Virus record (IMG/VR): IMGVR_UViG_2802429248_000011
Location: 1-19,329 of that record
DNA from: a virus
Lineage: Duplodnaviria; Heunggongvirae; Uroviricota; Caudoviricetes
Reading direction: 5' to 3' (one strand)
DNA length: 19,329 nt
The notes beneath the pieces were generated by a model, which saw nothing but the letters and a program-made list of their open reading frames with translations, made no database searches and had not been told where the DNA came from. The translations under genes and the position numbers were made by a program. Position 1 is the stretch's first letter, and each line of letters begins with the position of its first letter. This document shows positions 3,313-15,185 of this stretch, piece after piece.

Positions 3313-3590
3313 ATTGTGGTGCTTTTTGTGAGAGTCATCCACTTACGCACTTTGTTTTGCTATGCCAGCAGTTAGCTTCTGCTGTAAAACTATTCATGCA
3401 GCAAACCTGCACTTCACCACAATGGTTAGCATACTTTTCCTGATTAAGTTATTACCAAATATGCTGGCCATTGTTTCATGTATTGGACCGCCTTACTCTT
3501 TATTAAAGAGATCCAATATTCACCACTCTGTCTGTATCTCCACTCAGGCATCAGCCTTCTTCGTTATCGTATACAGACAAACTATGAATT

Positions 3591-3806
3591 TTAATCATTA
3601 ATGATGACATTTGCTGCTGCAGGACCTTTAGCACCACTCTCTACAGAGAAGGTAACCTTTTGACCTTCAAATAAGGTTCGATAATTATCATTCTGAATCG
3701 CAGAAAAATGCACAAACACATCTTTACTACCATCAACAGGAGAAATAAAGCCGAAACCTTTATCAGCGTTAAACCATTTTACTAAACCAGTCATTTTATT
3801 TGACAT
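3591..3806 (-). CDS. cspB: Cold-shock protein CspB
   Basis: [71 protein letters not shown] carries the RNP1/RNP2 motifs and is near-identical to K-12 CspB from memory. Confidence 0.95.
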
Positions 3807-4002
3807 TCTACATTCCTTAACTTGAGCCTTTCGGCATAAATGGTTTGTATAACAGAAACGACTTCGTACTTAATTGGAGAGACTCAAAGAAGGAATAAGT
3901 GAATAACACCTGAAATGAGAACTGCTTTAGTAAACTACTTCGTATATCGTCTGTTCTTCAAACCGACGCAATCATTAACGCATAGTTGAACATATGAAGC
4001 AA
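3807..4002 (-). promoter_or_regulatory. cspB promoter and long cspA-type 5' UTR with cold box
   Basis: The minus strand reads TTGCTT (4002-3997), 17 nt, GTTAAT (3979-3974), then cggtttgaagaacagacgat (3965-3946). This parallels the cspA cold box cggtttgacgtacagac. The gccgaaaggc element lies near the SD. The leader is about 160 nt. Confidence 0.6.
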
Positions 4003-11803: not shown

Positions 11804-11994
11804 GGACGCACCTCCGCCGTAGTTACGTATTTAACCGGGCTACCTTTCATTGAGATGGTTTCACACATCTCTGCCGCTTTCAGTTCCGCCGTTTTTCTGG
11901 ATTTATAGCGACGGTGCCAGACAGATACATCCGTGCGAACTGATACATCGTTTCTGTATTCCGTAGTGGAGATGATGATTTCGTAACTAATCAT
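11800..11994 (-). CDS. Hypothetical 64-aa protein
   Basis: The start MISYEII at 11994 has a GGGAGG SD 6 nt upstream and an ATGA overlap with the upstream stop. Function unknown. Confidence 0.6.
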   Translation of the reverse strand: MISYEIIISTTEYRNDVSVRTDVSVWHRRYKSRKTAELKAAEMCETISMKGSPVKYVTTAEVRP

Positions 11995-12353
11995 GGGCGT
12001 ACCTCCCATTGATTACGGCGAAAAGCAGTGTGATTCAGGCTGGTTTCAGCCTCATGGAATGCTCCAATGCAGCTCTCGTAGTACCGCATTGTGCGTAGAC
12101 TTAACCCAAGCTGAAGCATCATCAGGCCATCAAGGGTGATGTAATAACCACGCAGGGAGTCACCATAGATGTGGTAAGTACCCGGTATGAAGTTGCGGGT
12201 AAAAAATTCGCGCGAGCAGTTCAGATACTCGATTTTGTCGACGATGTTCTGGTGCATGCGCTTAAAGTGGCAGGCAACATGCAGGGAGAAAATAACAGCT
12301 TTGCCGTTGACGACTTCGATTTTGAGGAATGGGGAAGTTGGGACTGTAGCCAT
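11991..12353 (-). CDS. Rha-domain-only protein (120 aa); a longer upstream start is possible
   Basis: The start MATVPTSPFLKIEVVNGKAVIFSLHVACHFKRMHQNIVDKIEYL...YYITLDGLMMLQLGL follows the Rha pattern. An AAGGAGG SD lies 8 nt upstream of the ATG at 12353. The frame stays open up to 12887, but the upstream part overlaps the previous gene, contains terminator hairpins, and the ATG at 12653 has no SD. Confidence 0.65.
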   Translation of the reverse strand: MATVPTSPFLKIEVVNGKAVIFSLHVACHFKRMHQNIVDKIEYLNCSREFFTRNFIPGTYHIYGDSLRGYYITLDGLMMLQLGLSLRTMRYYESCIGAFHEAETSLNHTAFRRNQWEVRP

Positions 12354-12517
12354 GATGGCAGCCTCCTTGATCGGTGAAAAACTTCCACCACCGGAGCTGC
12401 GAAACTCATGGGTGGTGAACTGAACAGGGTTCGCAGTACCGGCGATCAAGGAAACCGGCGAGCCTTTCGGCTCCCCTGCCCAGCCCACCATAATTCTGGC
12501 GTGCGTGAGCGCAGACG

Positions 12518-12540
12518 ATAAAAAAGACGCTGGCGCGTCG
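12518..12540 (-). terminator. Weak intrinsic terminator candidate within the PR-type operon
   Basis: The minus strand reads gacgc-gcca-gcgtc followed by ttttttat. The stem is a short 5-bp GC-rich one. Confidence 0.35.
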
Positions 12541-12676
12541 TATATCGCCTTGATCAATTCCGGGCTGCGACCCCCGGCACCCGCTTTATAAGGTGCTGGA
12601 ACAGTGTAACGTCCCGAAATTACAGAATCAATATTTTGGCTTGAAACATTCATATGCTTACTGGTATTTTTACTAA

Positions 12677-12766
12677 CGCAAATGTTCTTGGATGTTACTG
12701 GCTTACTTCTTTGTGAGGTTGCCTTTACTAACGTTGAGCGAGCCGGGTCACTACCCGGCTTTTTTT
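12677..12766 (+). ncRNA. Candidate oop-like antisense RNA (promoter, ~90 nt, strong terminator)
   Basis: The promoter reads TTGAAA (12641-12646), 18 nt including TG, then TATTTT (12665-12670). The terminator is gccgggt-cact-acccggc plus T7 (12742-12766) on the plus strand. That orientation opposes the surrounding operon. The T-run ends on the stop codon of the upstream Rha-like gene. Confidence 0.4.
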
Positions 12767-13473
12767 CACCGCTGCCAACCAATAACCTGAAATAACCCCA
12801 TTTTCGGGTGATACCAGCGAGTCCCTCGCGGTTCTGCTTCCGCCATAACCTGATGGAAAGCAGCCATAAACGGTTCCACGGCAACAATTGCGCGACGTGA
12901 CAACAATCCGTCCGGCGTCATGAACTCATGGGTGTCTGTAGGAATTTGATAAGCGTTCACCAGATTGCGGCATTTATCATCTGACAAACCGGTTTTCGCT
13001 TTCAGTTGGCGATATCCGGCATAGCCCTCACGAATGTTGCCCTTTTTGATTTGCTCAACTGTTTCGGCAACGTGGCTGACTTTTTCTTCCACCTGAGTGA
13101 TCCGTTTCTGCTGACGAACAGCTTCAAGAGCCATCGCGGCAACCATTTCGATTTCGCTCATTGGCTTACGGATCTGTTCTTCCAGTTCGCGCCAGCGATC
13201 TACTAGGCGGGCTGTGAATTCGGGACAAAGCTGTGCGACGACAATGATGCTGTCGCGCTTACCTTGTTCGCCTTCGAAGATGTAAGCACCTACATTTCGT
13301 TTTAATCCTAAGTTGTTGATTATTTCGAAATTCGCCATTGGCGCACTTCGAATAATCCCCTTATCCATGAGCCTTTCAATGCTGCGCTTAACATCTTTGT
13401 GTTGGCTGCCCACCAACTCTGCGATTTCAAGGCTGGTCATGGATGCTTTGCCGTTAAAAATTGCGGTGTTCAT
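12766..13473 (-). CDS. Rha-family regulatory / antirepressor-like protein (235 aa) at the cII position
   Basis: ASMTSLEIAELVGSQHKDVKRSIERLMDKG...YIFEGEQGKRDSIIVVAQLCPEFTARLVDRWRELEEQ. An AGGAGA SD is present, and an ATGA overlap joins it to the Cro-like stop. Confidence 0.8.
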   Translation of the reverse strand: MNTAIFNGKASMTSLEIAELVGSQHKDVKRSIERLMDKGIIRSAPMANFEIINNLGLKRNVGAYIFEGEQGKRDSIIVVAQLCPEFTARLVDRWRELEEQIRKPMSEIEMVAAMALEAVRQQKRITQVEEKVSHVAETVEQIKKGNIREGYAGYRQLKAKTGLSDDKCRNLVNAYQIPTDTHEFMTPDGLLSRRAIVAVEPFMAAFHQVMAEAEPRGTRWYHPKMGLFQVIGWQR

Positions 13474-14563: not shown

Positions 14564-14589
14564 GCCCACTCTTAAGTGGGCTTTTTTTT
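14564..14589 (+). terminator. Intrinsic terminator after cI
   Basis: gcccact-ctta-agtgggc followed by T8. Confidence 0.85.
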
Positions 14590-14595
14590 GGAAAA

Positions 14596-14638
14596 AATCG
14601 ATAAACCGATTGACAGGCGAAATCGGTAAACCTATTAT
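14596..14638 (+). promoter_or_regulatory. PL-type early promoter with two overlapping operators
   Basis: The promoter is TTGACA (14610-14615), 17 nt, TATTAT (14633-14638). The operators are AATCGATAAACCGATT (14596-14611) and AATCGGTAAACCTATT (14621-14636). They are related to the palindrome at 13803-13818. Confidence 0.8.
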
Positions 14639-14687
14639 TATGGCATAGGTATCGAACTCACCAAAGCAATTATAGAGGATGAGAAAA

Positions 14688-15185
14688 ATGTCATCGTATA
14701 TGGGGTTACCAACAAATCAGCACGATGCTCTTGAGAATATTCAGCTCTTAGTCGGGGCTGGTGCACTACTGTATAGCAGCAATAACCCTGAGTTAATTGA
14801 ACTTGCCAGCTCCATCCTGGCTGTAACTCAAAAATATAGCCTCACAGCGTCGCGTTTATGCAAACAAAATTTAGCTATTAATTCCCAGAATCGGATTAGC
14901 ACTCAACGCGAAGCCTGCGGCTTAACAACCGCCGAACTCGCCAGGCTGCTCGATCTCGATGAAGAAATTATCATCCAGTGGGAGAGCGGAGAGTATGAAC
15001 CAACCATCAGCATGCTTATCCCACTGGCAAATATTCTTGGCTGCGATCCGATGTGGCTGTTAACTGGCGAGGTTACTCCTCCGGAGCAACCAAAAAGTGA
15101 GGAGCAGCAACACCATGACGCATCTCAACAAGTTTGCTCCTTATCTCGCGAAGCTCTTCTACGGAAGAACCAATACCAATGGTGA
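14688..15185 (+). CDS. XRE-family HTH protein with unknown ~75-aa N-terminal domain; first gene of the PL-type operon
   Basis: The HTH is ISTQREACGLTTAELARLLDLDEEIIIQWESGEYEPTISMLIPLANILGCDPMWLLTGE. An AGAGG SD lies 9 nt upstream of the ATG at 14688. The tracked ATG at 14679 abuts the SD. The last ~36 codons are low-complexity and overlap the convergent 86-aa gene. Confidence 0.75.
   Translation: MSSYMGLPTNQHDALENIQLLVGAGALLYSSNNPELIELASSILAVTQKYSLTASRLCKQNLAINSQNRISTQREACGLTTAELARLLDLDEEIIIQWESGEYEPTISMLIPLANILGCDPMWLLTGEVTPPEQPKSEEQQHHDASQQVCSLSREALLRKNQYQW

What the first reader, a model, noticed from the sequence alone, without database searches (positions are those of the whole stretch)
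12354..12766. A 412-nt spacer in the PR-type operon with opposed terminators: candidate oop-like antisense RNA
What the sequence shows:
- Between the stop of the 235-aa Rha-like gene (12766) and the strongly SD-supported start at 12353 lies a GC-rich stretch with three signals.
- A plus-strand promoter-like element: TTGAAA, 18 nt with TG, TATTTT (12641-12670).
- A textbook plus-strand terminator: gccgggt-cact-acccggc plus T7 (12742-12766). It points against the operon, and its T-run ends on the Rha-like stop codon.
- A weak minus-strand hairpin with a U6 tract (12518-12540).

Established knowledge: lambda encodes the 77-nt oop RNA antisense to the 3' end of cII, between cII and O.

Inference: an antisense RNA of about 90 nt may control the gene at the cII position or the downstream cistrons. 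The minus-strand hairpin would be a tR1-like attenuator.

Conflicting evidence: the same region is an uninterrupted reading frame, part of the 298-codon tracked ORF. An ATG at 12653 lies in that frame but has no SD.
Basis: partly seen in the sequence, partly recalled or inferred. Interest (0 to 1): 0.55.

Follow-up and report, generated by a model that had tools for sequence, protein, structure and literature searches.

The report
Prophage IsrK–C4 antisense RNA switch
The supposed spacer is a known phage RNA switch (IsrK plus C4 antisense RNA, as in phages P1, P4 and Gifsy-1) that masks the ribosome site of the next gene. The proposed opposite-strand "oop-like" RNA is possible but unproven.

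Summary

- **What is there.** The operon (minus) strand carries two curated RNA genes: isrK (12596-12520, 57.6 bits) and C4 antisense RNA (12495-12408, 85 bits). They sit behind a conserved promoter (TTGATT-17-TACACT).
- **How it pairs.** The C4 loop UUUCCUUGAUCG is complementary to the Shine-Dalgarno region of the ATG-12353 Rha-domain gene and to a mimic inside IsrK. These sites co-vary across 19 phage loci. The C4 fold is kept in 459 of 459 pair cells, with 12 compensatory pairs.
- **What it is.** This is the P1 immI / P4 seqA-CI / Gifsy-1 isrK-orf45-anrP switch, which is already known.
- **The long ORF.** RefSeq calls it "ash family protein" (Pfam PF10554). It shows no coding signature: pN/pS is 1.02, against 0.07-0.25 for the flanking genes. 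It is closed by stop codons in 9 of 19 loci.
- **The plus-strand RNA.** It would lie in a separate 130-nt mosaic segment (12635-12766). Its terminator is the best in the window. Its promoter hexamers, a 10-mer and the terminator persist across three diverged variants. A ~90-nt divergent sRNA is therefore possible (about 0.3) but untested. It is not homologous to oop and overlaps no coding sequence.

The parts
12603..12631 (-). Promoter of the isrK-C4 module: -35 TTGATT (12631-12626), 17-nt spacer, -10 TACACT (12608-12603). The predicted start is G at 12596.
   Evidence: A TTGAyn-17-TAnAnT promoter ends 6-7 nt before the isrK model start in all 19 loci compared and in Gifsy-1. The block shared with other phages begins here, near 12634. 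Coordinates checked.
12520..12596 (-). isrK sRNA (RF01394). It has a 5' hairpin; a second hairpin whose loop carries a1 (TCGCAG, 12570-12565); a linker carrying b1 (TTGATCAAGG, 12557-12548); and a terminator hairpin (12539-12526) followed by U6 (12525-12520).
   Evidence: 57.6 bits against a gathering score of 50, with the full model matched (1-77 of 77). An isrK match lies next to C4 in all 18 phage loci, in P4 and in Gifsy-1. Hairpin 1 shows compensatory changes.
12408..12495 (-). C4 antisense RNA (RF01695). It has a 17-bp outer stem and two inner hairpins. The b2 loop is TTTCCTTGATCG (12454-12443), the a2 junction is CTGCGAA (12436-12430), and the 3' tail is CCCA.
   Evidence: 85 bits against a gathering score of 45, with the full model matched (1-87 of 87). 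All 27 pairs are kept in 459 of 459 cells, and 12 pairs show changes on both sides. None of 500 shuffles reach this, and slid controls pair in only 33-49% of cells. The many G-U pairs mean the fold works only on the minus strand.
12397..12403 (-). a' target site TTCGCAG, complementary to C4 a2.
   Evidence: Read directly from the sequence. It co-varies with a2 and a1 across loci.
12362..12373 (-). b' target site CGATCAAGGAGG, which contains the Shine-Dalgarno AAGGAGG (12368-12362) of the ATG at 12353.
   Evidence: The 10-mer CGATCAAGGA occurs only here and, as its complement, in the C4 loop. Cognate C4/target duplexes average -32.1 kcal/mol against -23.4 for non-cognate pairs.
11991..12353 (-). 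The controlled gene: a 120-aa Rha-domain regulator or antirepressor-like protein.
   Evidence: phrog_995 (transcriptional regulator) 195 bits, with weaker hits to anti-repressor families. Pfam Phage_pRha scores 27.8 bits, below its 29.9 cut-off. pN/pS is 0.07-0.25 in this frame.
12489..12491 (-). AUG inside the C4 5' end, counterpart of the first AUG of Gifsy-1 orf45. Here it is in frame with the Rha gene with no stop codon between them.
   Evidence: It lies at isrK +106, against A107 in Gifsy-1 (PMC4825925 Table 1).
12641..12670 (+). Promoter-like site divergent from the isrK promoter: TTGAAA, 18 nt, TGg-TATTTT.
   Evidence: 9 of 12 matches, which is chance level on its own. Between intergenic types A and B the -35 is kept 6 of 6, the -10 5 of 6 and the TG is kept, while the spacer is kept only 10 of 18.
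12677..12766 (+). Candidate ~90-nt plus-strand RNA. It comprises a conserved GTTCTTGGAT (12684-12693), a variable hairpin (about 12700-12722), and a terminator hairpin (12740-12761) with T7 (12760-12766).
   Evidence: Folds to -31.8 kcal/mol, z-score -3.69. The 10-mer is kept 10 of 10 and the terminator stems 17 of 18 across three diverged types, while the leader and hairpin 2 diverge. Expression was not tested.
12766..13473 (-). Upstream 235-aa Rha/Roi-like gene, whose stop codon abuts the plus-strand T-run.
   Evidence: Pfam Phage_pRha 34.3 bits; phrog_63 anti-repressor Ant; pN/pS 0.21-0.25.

Best explanation
Positions 12354-12634 hold an IsrK-C4 RNA switch of the P1 immI / P4 immunity / Gifsy-1 isrK type. 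It sits in the early rightward operon of an E. coli-type lambdoid prophage, just before a small Rha-domain gene and the replication genes.

Shown here:
1. A promoter (TTGATT-17-TACACT) is placed to start transcription at 12596.
2. The first 77 nt match IsrK and end in a short hairpin + U6 terminator.
3. 24 nt further on lies a full-length C4 RNA with a tRNA-like long stem and a CCA-type tail.
4. Two single-stranded C4 segments, a2 and b2, are complementary to a' (12403-12397) and b' (12373-12362). The b' site contains the Shine-Dalgarno sequence of the ATG at 12353.
5. The same C4 segments are complementary to mimics a1 and b1 inside IsrK.
6. All three sets of sites co-vary between phages.

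Inferred from experiments on P1/P7, P4, N15 and Gifsy-1:
1. Read-through of the IsrK terminator, or transcription arriving from the upstream operon, yields a precursor from which C4 is cut out.
2. Free C4 pairs with a'/b' and blocks ribosome binding at the Rha-domain gene.
3. Through loss of translation, this probably also lowers transcription of the genes behind it.
4. Short IsrK carries copies of the target sites. It titrates or re-folds the C4 region and so switches the gene on.

The 220-aa 'ash family' ORF drawn through this DNA is a conceptual translation of the RNA genes, not a protein under selection.
For: - **Rfam matches.** Both are above the curated thresholds with full-length models: C4 85 bits (gathering 45), isrK 57.6 bits (gathering 50).
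- **Same layout elsewhere.** isrK followed about 24 nt later by C4 is found in 18 of 18 related phage loci, in P4 over its CI RNA region, and in the experimentally studied Gifsy-1 locus between antQ and anrP.
- **Promoter.** It is conserved at a fixed distance in all loci.
- **C4 fold.** 27 pairs, 459 of 459 cells paired, 12 pairs with compensatory changes, 0 of 500 shuffles as good, slid controls 33-49% paired.
- **Pairing sites.**
  - b2 against b' is a 12-bp match over the SD, and the 10-mer is unique in the window.
  - Cognate C4/target duplexes average -32.1 against -23.4 kcal/mol for non-cognate pairs.
  - Cognate C4/IsrK duplexes average -37.8 against -26.3, and the cognate IsrK is the best partner in 18 of 19 loci.
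- **No coding signature.**
  - Variable columns fall 43/42/44 by codon position.
  - pN/pS is 1.02 in the ORF frame and 1.03 and 0.91 in the other two. The flanking genes give 0.07-0.25 in their true frame and above 1 in wrong frames.
  - The frame is closed by stops in 9 of 19 loci.
  - Similarity to the 'Ash' peptide jumps between frames in 5 diverged loci.
- **Literature.**
  - IsrK and C4 are the structural homologues of P4 seqA and CI RNA, and occur in lambdoid prophages (PMC3632133).
  - For Gifsy-1, IsrK terminator read-through, trans-activation by short IsrK, and a processed STnc1160 RNA over orf45 have been reported (PMC4825925).
- **Public annotation.** Some records already label these features as C4 and isrK (Stx2 phage F004, APSE-7).
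Against: - Nothing was measured in this prophage. Expression, processing and repression are all inferred by homology.
- The controlled 120-aa protein is not similar to Gifsy-1 AnrP (E = 0.68). It falls just below the Pfam and TIGRFAM Rha cut-offs, so its role as antirepressor is a guess.
- The module lies inside a longer operon, so how much its own promoter matters relative to read-through from upstream is unknown.
- The published Gifsy-1 model (an intramolecular IsrK/orf45 helix plus translational coupling) and the P1 model (free C4 blocking the RBS) are not identical. The data here cannot choose between them.
- Part of the region may still be translated. The orf45-type AUG at 12491 is in frame with the gene here.
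Confidence: 0.9

Rival explanations
1. This is an addition to the IsrK-C4 switch rather than a replacement for it. The 130-nt segment 12635-12766 would encode a ~90-nt plus-strand sRNA transcribed divergently from the isrK promoter. Its parts would be a promoter at 12641-12670, a conserved 5'-proximal GUUCUUGGAU, a variable hairpin, and a terminator with U7. It could act in cis on operon transcripts that read from the Rha235 gene into the switch, or in trans through the 10-mer.
For: - The terminator is the strongest in the window and works only on the plus strand.
- Across three diverged intergenic types, the parts a plus-strand sRNA gene needs are kept: the -35 is kept 6 of 6, the -10 5 of 6, the TG is kept, the 10-mer 10 of 10 and the terminator stems 17 of 18. 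The spacer (10 of 18), leader (3 of 13) and hairpin-2 region (18 of 41) diverge, and each type has its own stem.
- The plus strand folds better than the minus strand in types A and C: about -30 to -32 against -15 to -25 kcal/mol. The z-score is -3.69.
- phiP27-type loci carry a non-homologous terminator with the same orientation at the same place.
Against: - The promoter match is only 9 of 12, which is chance level as a single site.
- There are only three lineages, all in one narrow context: 79 of 80 matches in IMG/VR lie between this Roi-like gene and isrK.
- The conserved blocks could instead be upstream control sites for the isrK promoter, or elements of the sense transcript.
- Minor variants in type B fit the minus-strand hairpin better.
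- No match to any Rfam family on the plus strand, even at E up to 1.
- No target for the 10-mer elsewhere in the window.
- No transcript data were found.
Confidence: 0.3
2. The plus-strand terminator makes no dedicated RNA. It is an insulator that stops stray antisense transcription coming from the replication/isrK side before it enters the Rha235-cro-repressor region. Alternatively, its hairpin serves the sense transcript as a 3'-end stabiliser. The promoter-like hexamers would then be coincidental, or part of the isrK promoter's upstream region.
For: - Two unrelated sequences provide an antisense-oriented terminator at the same position after the Roi-like gene.
- The promoter-like site is at chance level.
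- The -35-like TTGAAA lies 45-50 nt upstream of the isrK start, where upstream promoter elements or activator sites would sit.
Against: - This does not explain the invariant GTTCTTGGAT 10-mer, or why the exact 18-nt spacing and the TG are kept between types.
- More distant relatives of the Roi-like gene in other genera have no such terminator.
Confidence: 0.45
3. The open frame is real: a 220-aa 'Ash-Rha' fusion protein is made from the ATG at 12653, or a longer form from upstream. RefSeq and several phage records annotate it this way.
For: - The frame is open for 298 codons.
- Pfam PF10554 Phage_ASH scores 66.9 bits on residues 16-107, and several PHROGs families match.
- PGAP and phage annotators call it a gene.
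- In some phages the long ORF starts within 2 nt after, or overlaps by 4 nt, the stop of the preceding gene.
Against: - pN/pS is 1.02, and variable sites are spread evenly over codon positions. The controls give 0.07-0.25.
- The frame is closed in 9 of 19 loci, and other frames are also sometimes fully open in this stop-poor DNA.
- Homology crosses frames in diverged loci.
- The ATG at 12653 lacks an SD and lies upstream of the module's own promoter.
- The Pfam match covers exactly the block from promoter through isrK, C4 and the target sites.
- The Pfam family also matches (59.7 bits) the old conceptual 'cI gene product' ORF of P4, which overlaps the CI RNA. The P4 immunity factor is known to be an RNA (PMC3632133, PMC4825925).
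Confidence: 0.04

Closest known systems
Gifsy-1 isrK-orf45(STnc1160)-anrP-isrJ locus of Salmonella (Hershko-Shalev et al. 2016, PMC4825925)
   Same: - Same order and spacing: own promoter, isrK with a leaky hairpin-U terminator, about 25 nt of spacer, a C4-type RNA, an a' site, then a b' site over the SD of the next gene.
- The AUG in the C4 5' end is at the same position (+106 here, +107 in Gifsy-1).
   Different: - It lies after antQ in the late-regulatory region of Gifsy-1, but between a Roi-like gene and the replication genes here.
- The cargo protein is unrelated (AnrP against the 120-aa Rha-domain protein, E = 0.68).
- orf45 stops on the anrP start codon in Gifsy-1 (ATGA overlap), but here it runs in frame into the gene.
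- No isrJ follows here.
- The a/b specificity sequences differ.
immI operon of phages P1 and P7: c4 RNA, icd, ant (Citron and Schuster 1990; Biere et al. 1992; from my own knowledge)
   Same: - A C4 RNA sits on the same strand as its targets.
- The a2/b2 segments pair with a'/b' over the ribosome site of the next gene.
- a1/b1 copies lie upstream.
- The a/b sequences differ between heteroimmune relatives.
- The stem and CCA tail are tRNA-like, fitting RNase P processing.
   Different: - P1 is not lambdoid.
- Its operon is under the C1 repressor.
- The first controlled gene is icd, followed by ant.
- The P1 upstream a1/b1 region is not described as a separately terminated sRNA.
Phage-plasmid P4 immunity: seqA, CI RNA, seqC (cited in PMC3632133 and PMC4825925)
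   Same: - Rfam isrK and C4 models hit P4 seqA and CI.
- The RNA lies in the leader of an operon that carries replication genes, as here.
- The same 'Ash'/cI conceptual ORF artefact appears.
   Different: - In P4 the isrK and C4 matches are 107 nt apart, against 24 nt here.
- CI acts mainly by causing premature transcription termination.
- P4 is a satellite.
Lambda oop RNA
   Same: - A short RNA gene would lie on the strand opposite to the rightward early operon.
- It would sit between an early regulator gene and the replication genes.
- It would have its own promoter and a hairpin-U terminator.
   Different: - No sequence similarity.
- By my own reading against the cII coordinates (oop itself is not annotated in that record), oop overlaps tens of nucleotides (roughly 50) of the cII coding sequence. 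Here the T-run stops on the stop codon, so no coding sequence is covered.
- Expression here is unproven.
N15 / phiKO2 anti-immunity locus: small processed RNA, icd, antA, antB (Ravin et al. 1999; from my own knowledge)
   Same: isrK and C4 matches lie directly upstream of the icd-antA-antB homologues in phiKO2.
   Different: - It is a linear plasmid-prophage.
- The cargo genes differ.

Membership tests
C4 antisense RNA (Rfam RF01695; P1 c4 / P4 CI type) | Covariance-model score at or above the curated gathering score, with a full-length match | tested here: met
   85 bits against 45; model positions 1-87 of 87.
C4 antisense RNA (Rfam RF01695; P1 c4 / P4 CI type) | Long outer stem enclosing two hairpins, supported by covariation | tested here: met
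   27 pairs; 100% of 459 cells paired; 12 pairs with compensatory changes; shuffle and slide controls far lower.
C4 antisense RNA (Rfam RF01695; P1 c4 / P4 CI type) | Two exposed segments (a2, b2) complementary to downstream a' and b' on the same transcript, with b' over the ribosome site of the next gene | tested here: met
   a2 CTGCGAA pairs with a' TTCGCAG. b2 TTTCCTTGATCG pairs with b' CGATCAAGGAGG, which contains the SD. The sites co-vary in 19 loci.
C4 antisense RNA (Rfam RF01695; P1 c4 / P4 CI type) | Upstream a1/b1 copies of the target sites | tested here: met
   TCGCAG and TTGATCAAGG lie inside isrK. The cognate IsrK is the best partner in 18 of 19 loci. The Rfam c4-a1b1 model itself scored above threshold only in 3 other loci and Gifsy-1, not in the window.
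C4 antisense RNA (Rfam RF01695; P1 c4 / P4 CI type) | Excised from a longer transcript by RNase P, and represses in vivo | not testable with these tools
   Only the sequence prerequisite is seen: a CCA or CCCA directly after the outer stem in the aligned loci.
isrK sRNA (Rfam RF01394; P4 seqA type) | Covariance-model score at or above the gathering score, positioned directly upstream of C4 | tested here: met
   57.6 bits against 50; model positions 1-77 of 77; 24 nt before C4. The same arrangement is found in 18 of 18 loci (about 24 nt apart) and in Gifsy-1 (25 nt apart); P4 has the same order with a 107-nt gap.
isrK sRNA (Rfam RF01394; P4 seqA type) | Own promoter and an intrinsic terminator | tested here: met
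   TTGATT-17-TACACT ends 6 nt before the model start and is conserved in all loci. The terminator is GACGC-GCCA-GCGTC plus U6. This is sequence evidence only.
isrK sRNA (Rfam RF01394; P4 seqA type) | Hfq binding, terminator read-through, and trans-activation of the long transcript | not testable with these tools
   Known for Gifsy-1 only (PMC4825925).
Lambda oop-type antisense RNA | Short RNA gene with promoter and terminator on the strand opposite to the early operon | tested here: inconclusive
   The terminator is strong; the promoter is 9 of 12 with TG; the elements are conserved in 3 types. There are no expression data.
Lambda oop-type antisense RNA | Overlaps the 3' coding end of the upstream regulator gene (cII in lambda) | tested here: not met
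   The T-run ends at 12766, the last base of the stop codon. No codon is covered.
Lambda oop-type antisense RNA | Sequence relatedness to oop | tested here: not met
   The alignment with the lambda oop region shows no meaningful similarity.
Ash protein family (Pfam PF10554) | HMM score above the gathering score | tested here: met
   66.9 bits against 26, on residues 16-107 of the 220-aa ORF.
Ash protein family (Pfam PF10554) | Evolves as a protein: purifying selection in frame, and a conserved open frame | tested here: not met
   pN/pS is 1.02. The frame is closed in 9 of 19 loci. Homology shifts frame in diverged loci. The P4 member of the family is the conceptual ORF over the CI RNA.

The most novel reading that the evidence does not exclude
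The 130 nt between the Roi-like gene and the isrK promoter would encode a previously undescribed ~90-nt sRNA on the opposite strand. It would be transcribed back-to-back with isrK: the two -35 boxes are 9 bp apart. An invariant 5'-proximal GUUCUUGGAU would serve as seed, followed by a hairpin that changes by compensatory replacement and a U7 terminator. Such an RNA could uncouple the IsrK-C4 switch and the replication genes from read-through of the early operon. It could also act on an unknown host or phage target.
Probability: 0.3. Interest if true: 0.45.

Novelty: already known. Interest (0 to 1): 0.25.

Why it matters
- **Annotation.** This DNA is labelled 'ash family protein' in RefSeq. 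A 601-nt query spanning the switch (12300-12900) matched 645 of 5,426 complete E. coli genomes, and the top hits shown were annotated this way. It has also been absorbed into Pfam PF10554 and several PHROGs families. The comparative evidence here says it is an RNA switch. Genome scans should mask it as non-coding and should not count it as a protein.
- **Biology.** The instance shows the P1/P4-type RNA immunity module sitting in front of the replication genes of a lambdoid prophage. Its target-site variants differ between co-resident Stx phages, which bears on cross-talk between prophages.
- **Novelty.** Nothing in the main result is new in kind.

Tried and rejected
1. **Long ORF as a real gene.** Rejected on codon-position spread, pN/pS, frame closure and frame-jumping homology.
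2. **Homology of the plus-strand unit to lambda oop.** None found.
3. **The plus-strand unit in other genomic contexts.** A pattern scan of IMG/VR gave 93 stretches. Of the 80 examined, 79 lie in the same context and 1 is an unrelated chance match.
4. **More diversity from other genera.** Relatives of the Roi-like gene in GTDB genomes gave 8 loci. All share only the C-terminal domain, sit in other contexts and have no terminator, so they do not help.
5. **A second site for the conserved 10-mer in the window.** None found.
6. **Rfam at a permissive E-value on both strands of 12200-12900.** Nothing on the plus strand.
7. **Literature on prophage sRNAs of pathogenic E. coli (Pas sRNAs, HnrS).** These lie in late regions and are unrelated.
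8. **Similarity of the controlled protein to Gifsy-1 AnrP.** None.
9. **Strand assignment of the intergenic hairpins from G-U variants.** Mixed: types A and C favour the plus strand, while type B is neutral or favours the minus strand.
Full report
**1. Observation**

- The plus-strand promoter-like site TTGAAA-18-TATTTT (12641-12670, with TG) matches 9 of 12 positions. Sites of that quality are no more common than in shuffled sequence: 3 against 3.2 expected locally, and 26 against 32 in the window.
- The plus-strand terminator (12740-12761 plus T7 to 12766) is the top-ranked terminator-like site of the whole 19-kb window. Its last T is the complement of the last base of the TGA of the 235-aa Rha-like gene.
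- The minus-strand hairpin with U6 is at 12539-12520.
- The frame is open from 12887 to 11991. An ATG without a Shine-Dalgarno sequence lies at 12653, and AAGGAGG lies 8 nt before the ATG at 12353.
- 'GC-rich' applies to 12354-12634 (55.5%) but not to 12635-12766 (40.9%). The window is 45.8%.

**2. What is really there**

A scan of the window against Rfam found two matches inside the 'spacer', both on the minus strand, which is the strand of the operon.
- C4 antisense RNA lies at 12495-12408 (85 bits, gathering score 45).
- isrK lies at 12596-12520 (57.6 bits, gathering score 50).
- Both cover their models end to end.

A sigma-70-type promoter, TTGATT (12631-12626), 17 nt, TACACT (12608-12603), ends 6 nt before the isrK model start.

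**3. Comparative evidence**

*Distribution.* The block 12337-12634 is shared with 378 phage records, mostly Stx phages. The 130 nt to its right (12635-12766) is shared with only nine. The finding therefore spans two separate mosaic pieces.

*Layout.* I fetched 18 diverse phage loci. Every one has isrK followed about 24 nt later by C4 on the operon strand. Every one has a TTGAyn-17-TAnAnT promoter at the same distance. Every one has a strong SD and ATG 49-57 nt after C4.

*Downstream genes.* These differ between loci: Rha, Ant, Bro-N, icd-antA-antB.

*C4 fold.*
- It is kept in all 459 pair cells of a 17-sequence alignment.
- 12 of 27 pairs change on both sides.
- No shuffle reaches this, and sliding the partners drops pairing to 33-49%.
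- Many pairs are G-U, so the fold exists only on the minus strand.

*Pairing sites.*
- The C4 hairpin-2 loop (b2, TTTCCTTGATCG) is complementary to CGATCAAGGAGG at 12373-12362, which contains the SD.
- The junction a2 (CTGCGAA) is complementary to TTCGCAG at 12403-12397.
- Copies of both targets lie inside isrK: TCGCAG in the loop of hairpin 2 and TTGATCAAGG in the linker.
- The b' 10-mer occurs nowhere else in the window except as its complement in C4.
- Across the 19 loci these three sets of sites change together. Cognate C4/target duplexes average -32.1 kcal/mol against -23.4 for mismatched pairs. Cognate C4/IsrK duplexes average -37.8 against -26.3, and the cognate IsrK ranks first in 18 of 19.
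- This is the pattern of specificity variants known from P1 against P7 (from my own knowledge).

**4. Is the open frame a gene?**

RefSeq annotates a 221-aa 'ash family protein' here, and phage annotators draw ORFs of 220-383 aa through the RNA region. The translation hits Pfam PF10554 Phage_ASH (66.9 bits) and several PHROGs families. The evidence against a protein is as follows.
- Among nine sequences in which the frame is open, variable columns fall 43/42/44 on codon positions 1/2/3.
- pN/pS is 1.02 in the ORF frame and 1.03 and 0.91 in the other two.
- The same test gives 0.07-0.25 for the two flanking Rha genes in their true frame and above 1 in wrong frames.
- The frame is closed by stop codons in 9 of 19 loci. 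The region is so poor in stops that other frames are sometimes fully open too.
- In five diverged loci the similarity to the window's 'Ash' peptide jumps from one frame to another.
- The Pfam match covers exactly the block from promoter through isrK, C4 and the target sites.
- In phage P4 the family matches the old conceptual 'cI gene product' ORF, which lies over the C4/CI RNA match. P4 immunity is known to be carried by the CI RNA (PMC3632133, PMC4825925).

The long ORF is therefore best read as a translation of RNA genes.

One caveat remains. In Gifsy-1 a 45-codon ORF starting at the AUG in the C4 5' end is translated when IsrK is over-expressed (PMC4825925). The same AUG is present here (12491-12489) and runs in frame into the Rha gene. 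Occasional translation of the last 46 codons is therefore not excluded.

**5. Mechanism**

*Shown here:*
- the promoter, the two RNA genes, the fold and the three-way complementarity;
- the overlap of b' with the ribosome site;
- the lack of coding constraint.

*Inferred from P1/P7, P4, N15 (from my own knowledge) and Gifsy-1 (PMC4825925):*
- Transcripts that pass the weak IsrK terminator, or that arrive from the upstream operon, are processed to free C4.
- C4 pairs with a'/b', blocks translation of the 120-aa Rha-domain protein, and probably causes polarity on the genes behind it. Here these are two small ORFs and the O-like, DnaC-like and DnaB-like replication genes.
- Short IsrK carries target mimics, sequesters or re-folds the C4 region, and turns the gene on.

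I compared the experimentally studied Gifsy-1 locus directly. It has the same promoter type, isrK (79.3 bits), a 25-nt spacer, C4 (69 bits), an a' site, and a b' site over the anrP SD. Its cargo protein is unrelated to the one here.

**6. The plus-strand RNA**

In 80 IMG/VR loci that carry the Roi-like gene, this piece comes in three diverged types of 148-158 nt, plus a fourth, unrelated phiP27 type.

*Conservation between the three types:*
- kept: the -35 (6 of 6), the -10 (5 of 6), the TG, the 18-nt spacing, a 10-mer GTTCTTGGAT (10 of 10) and the terminator stems (17 of 18);
- diverged: the spacer (10 of 18), the leader (3 of 13) and the middle hairpin (18 of 41), with each type having its own stem.

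*Other points in favour:*
- The A/T run varies from 6 to 8 but never disappears.
- The phiP27 type has a different hairpin with a T-rich tail, again on the antisense strand at the same spot.
- The plus strand folds better than the minus strand in two of the three types.

This is what a small divergent sRNA gene would look like.

*Points against:*
- There are only three lineages in one context.
- The conserved blocks could serve the isrK promoter.
- Minor variants are contradictory as to strand.
- No Rfam family matches.
- I found no transcript data.
- It is not related to lambda oop, and unlike oop it covers no coding sequence.

I put it at about 0.3.

**7. Verdict**

The main content of the finding is a known RNA switch. 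It is recognisable by curated models and is already annotated as such in some public phage records. The interpretation as an oop-like antisense RNA is not what explains the region. The idea of RNA control of the downstream cistron, and of a leaky terminator, is correct. Interest is low, apart from the annotation artefact and the untested plus-strand candidate.

Noticed in passing
window 12333-12608 (minus strand); P4 locus L194 1669-2085: Pfam PF10554 'Ash protein family', the RefSeq name 'ash family protein' and PHROGs 3960/995/821/6928 all match the conceptual translation of the isrK-C4 RNA locus. The family's P4 member is the old 'cI gene product' ORF that lies over the CI RNA. These look like protein families built on RNA genes.
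   Followed up: yes
window 12489-12491 (minus strand): The AUG in the conserved C4 5' end corresponds to the first AUG of Gifsy-1 orf45. In Gifsy-1 that ORF ends on the anrP start codon (ATGA overlap). Here it continues in frame for 46 codons into the Rha-domain gene, which would give a 166-aa extended form if it is used.
   Followed up: partly
L051 2213-2233 (phiP27-type loci L051, L052, L067): A non-homologous hairpin, GGCCGG-9-CCGGCC with a T-rich tail, sits on the antisense strand directly after the Roi-like gene. This is the same place and orientation as the window's plus-strand terminator, although the next gene (a Bro-N/Ant gene) is on the operon strand.
   Followed up: partly
window 3526-3967 (minus strand): Full-length match to the cspA thermoregulator 5' UTR (RF01766, 157.9 bits). 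It overlaps most of a 71-aa ORF at 3591-3806. This would be a prophage-borne cold-shock gene with its RNA thermometer.
   Followed up: no
window 14564-14638 (plus strand): A strong terminator, GCCCACTC-TTAA-GTGGGC plus T8, follows the LexA-type repressor gene. Right after it comes the best promoter-like site of the window (TTGACA-17-TATTAT, 11 of 12), ahead of a 168-aa ORF at 14679-15185.
   Followed up: no
loci L001-L018, isrK/C4/target sites: The a and b pairing sequences differ between related Stx and other lambdoid phages while the scaffold stays the same, giving many specificity types. The window and phage ASU11 share identical isrK and C4, so they would cross-react.
   Followed up: partly
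window 12760-12766 and IMG/VR loci L020-L099: The A/T run between the Roi-like stop codon and the hairpin varies between 6 and 8 bases among otherwise near-identical loci.
   Followed up: no
L003 1798-1993; L008-L010 upstream of isrK: In other Stx and Salmonella phages a different ~190-nt sequence replaces the window's 130-nt segment. There the long ORF starts within 2 nt after, or overlaps by 4 nt, the stop of the preceding gene. Whether that piece is translated was not tested.
   Followed up: no
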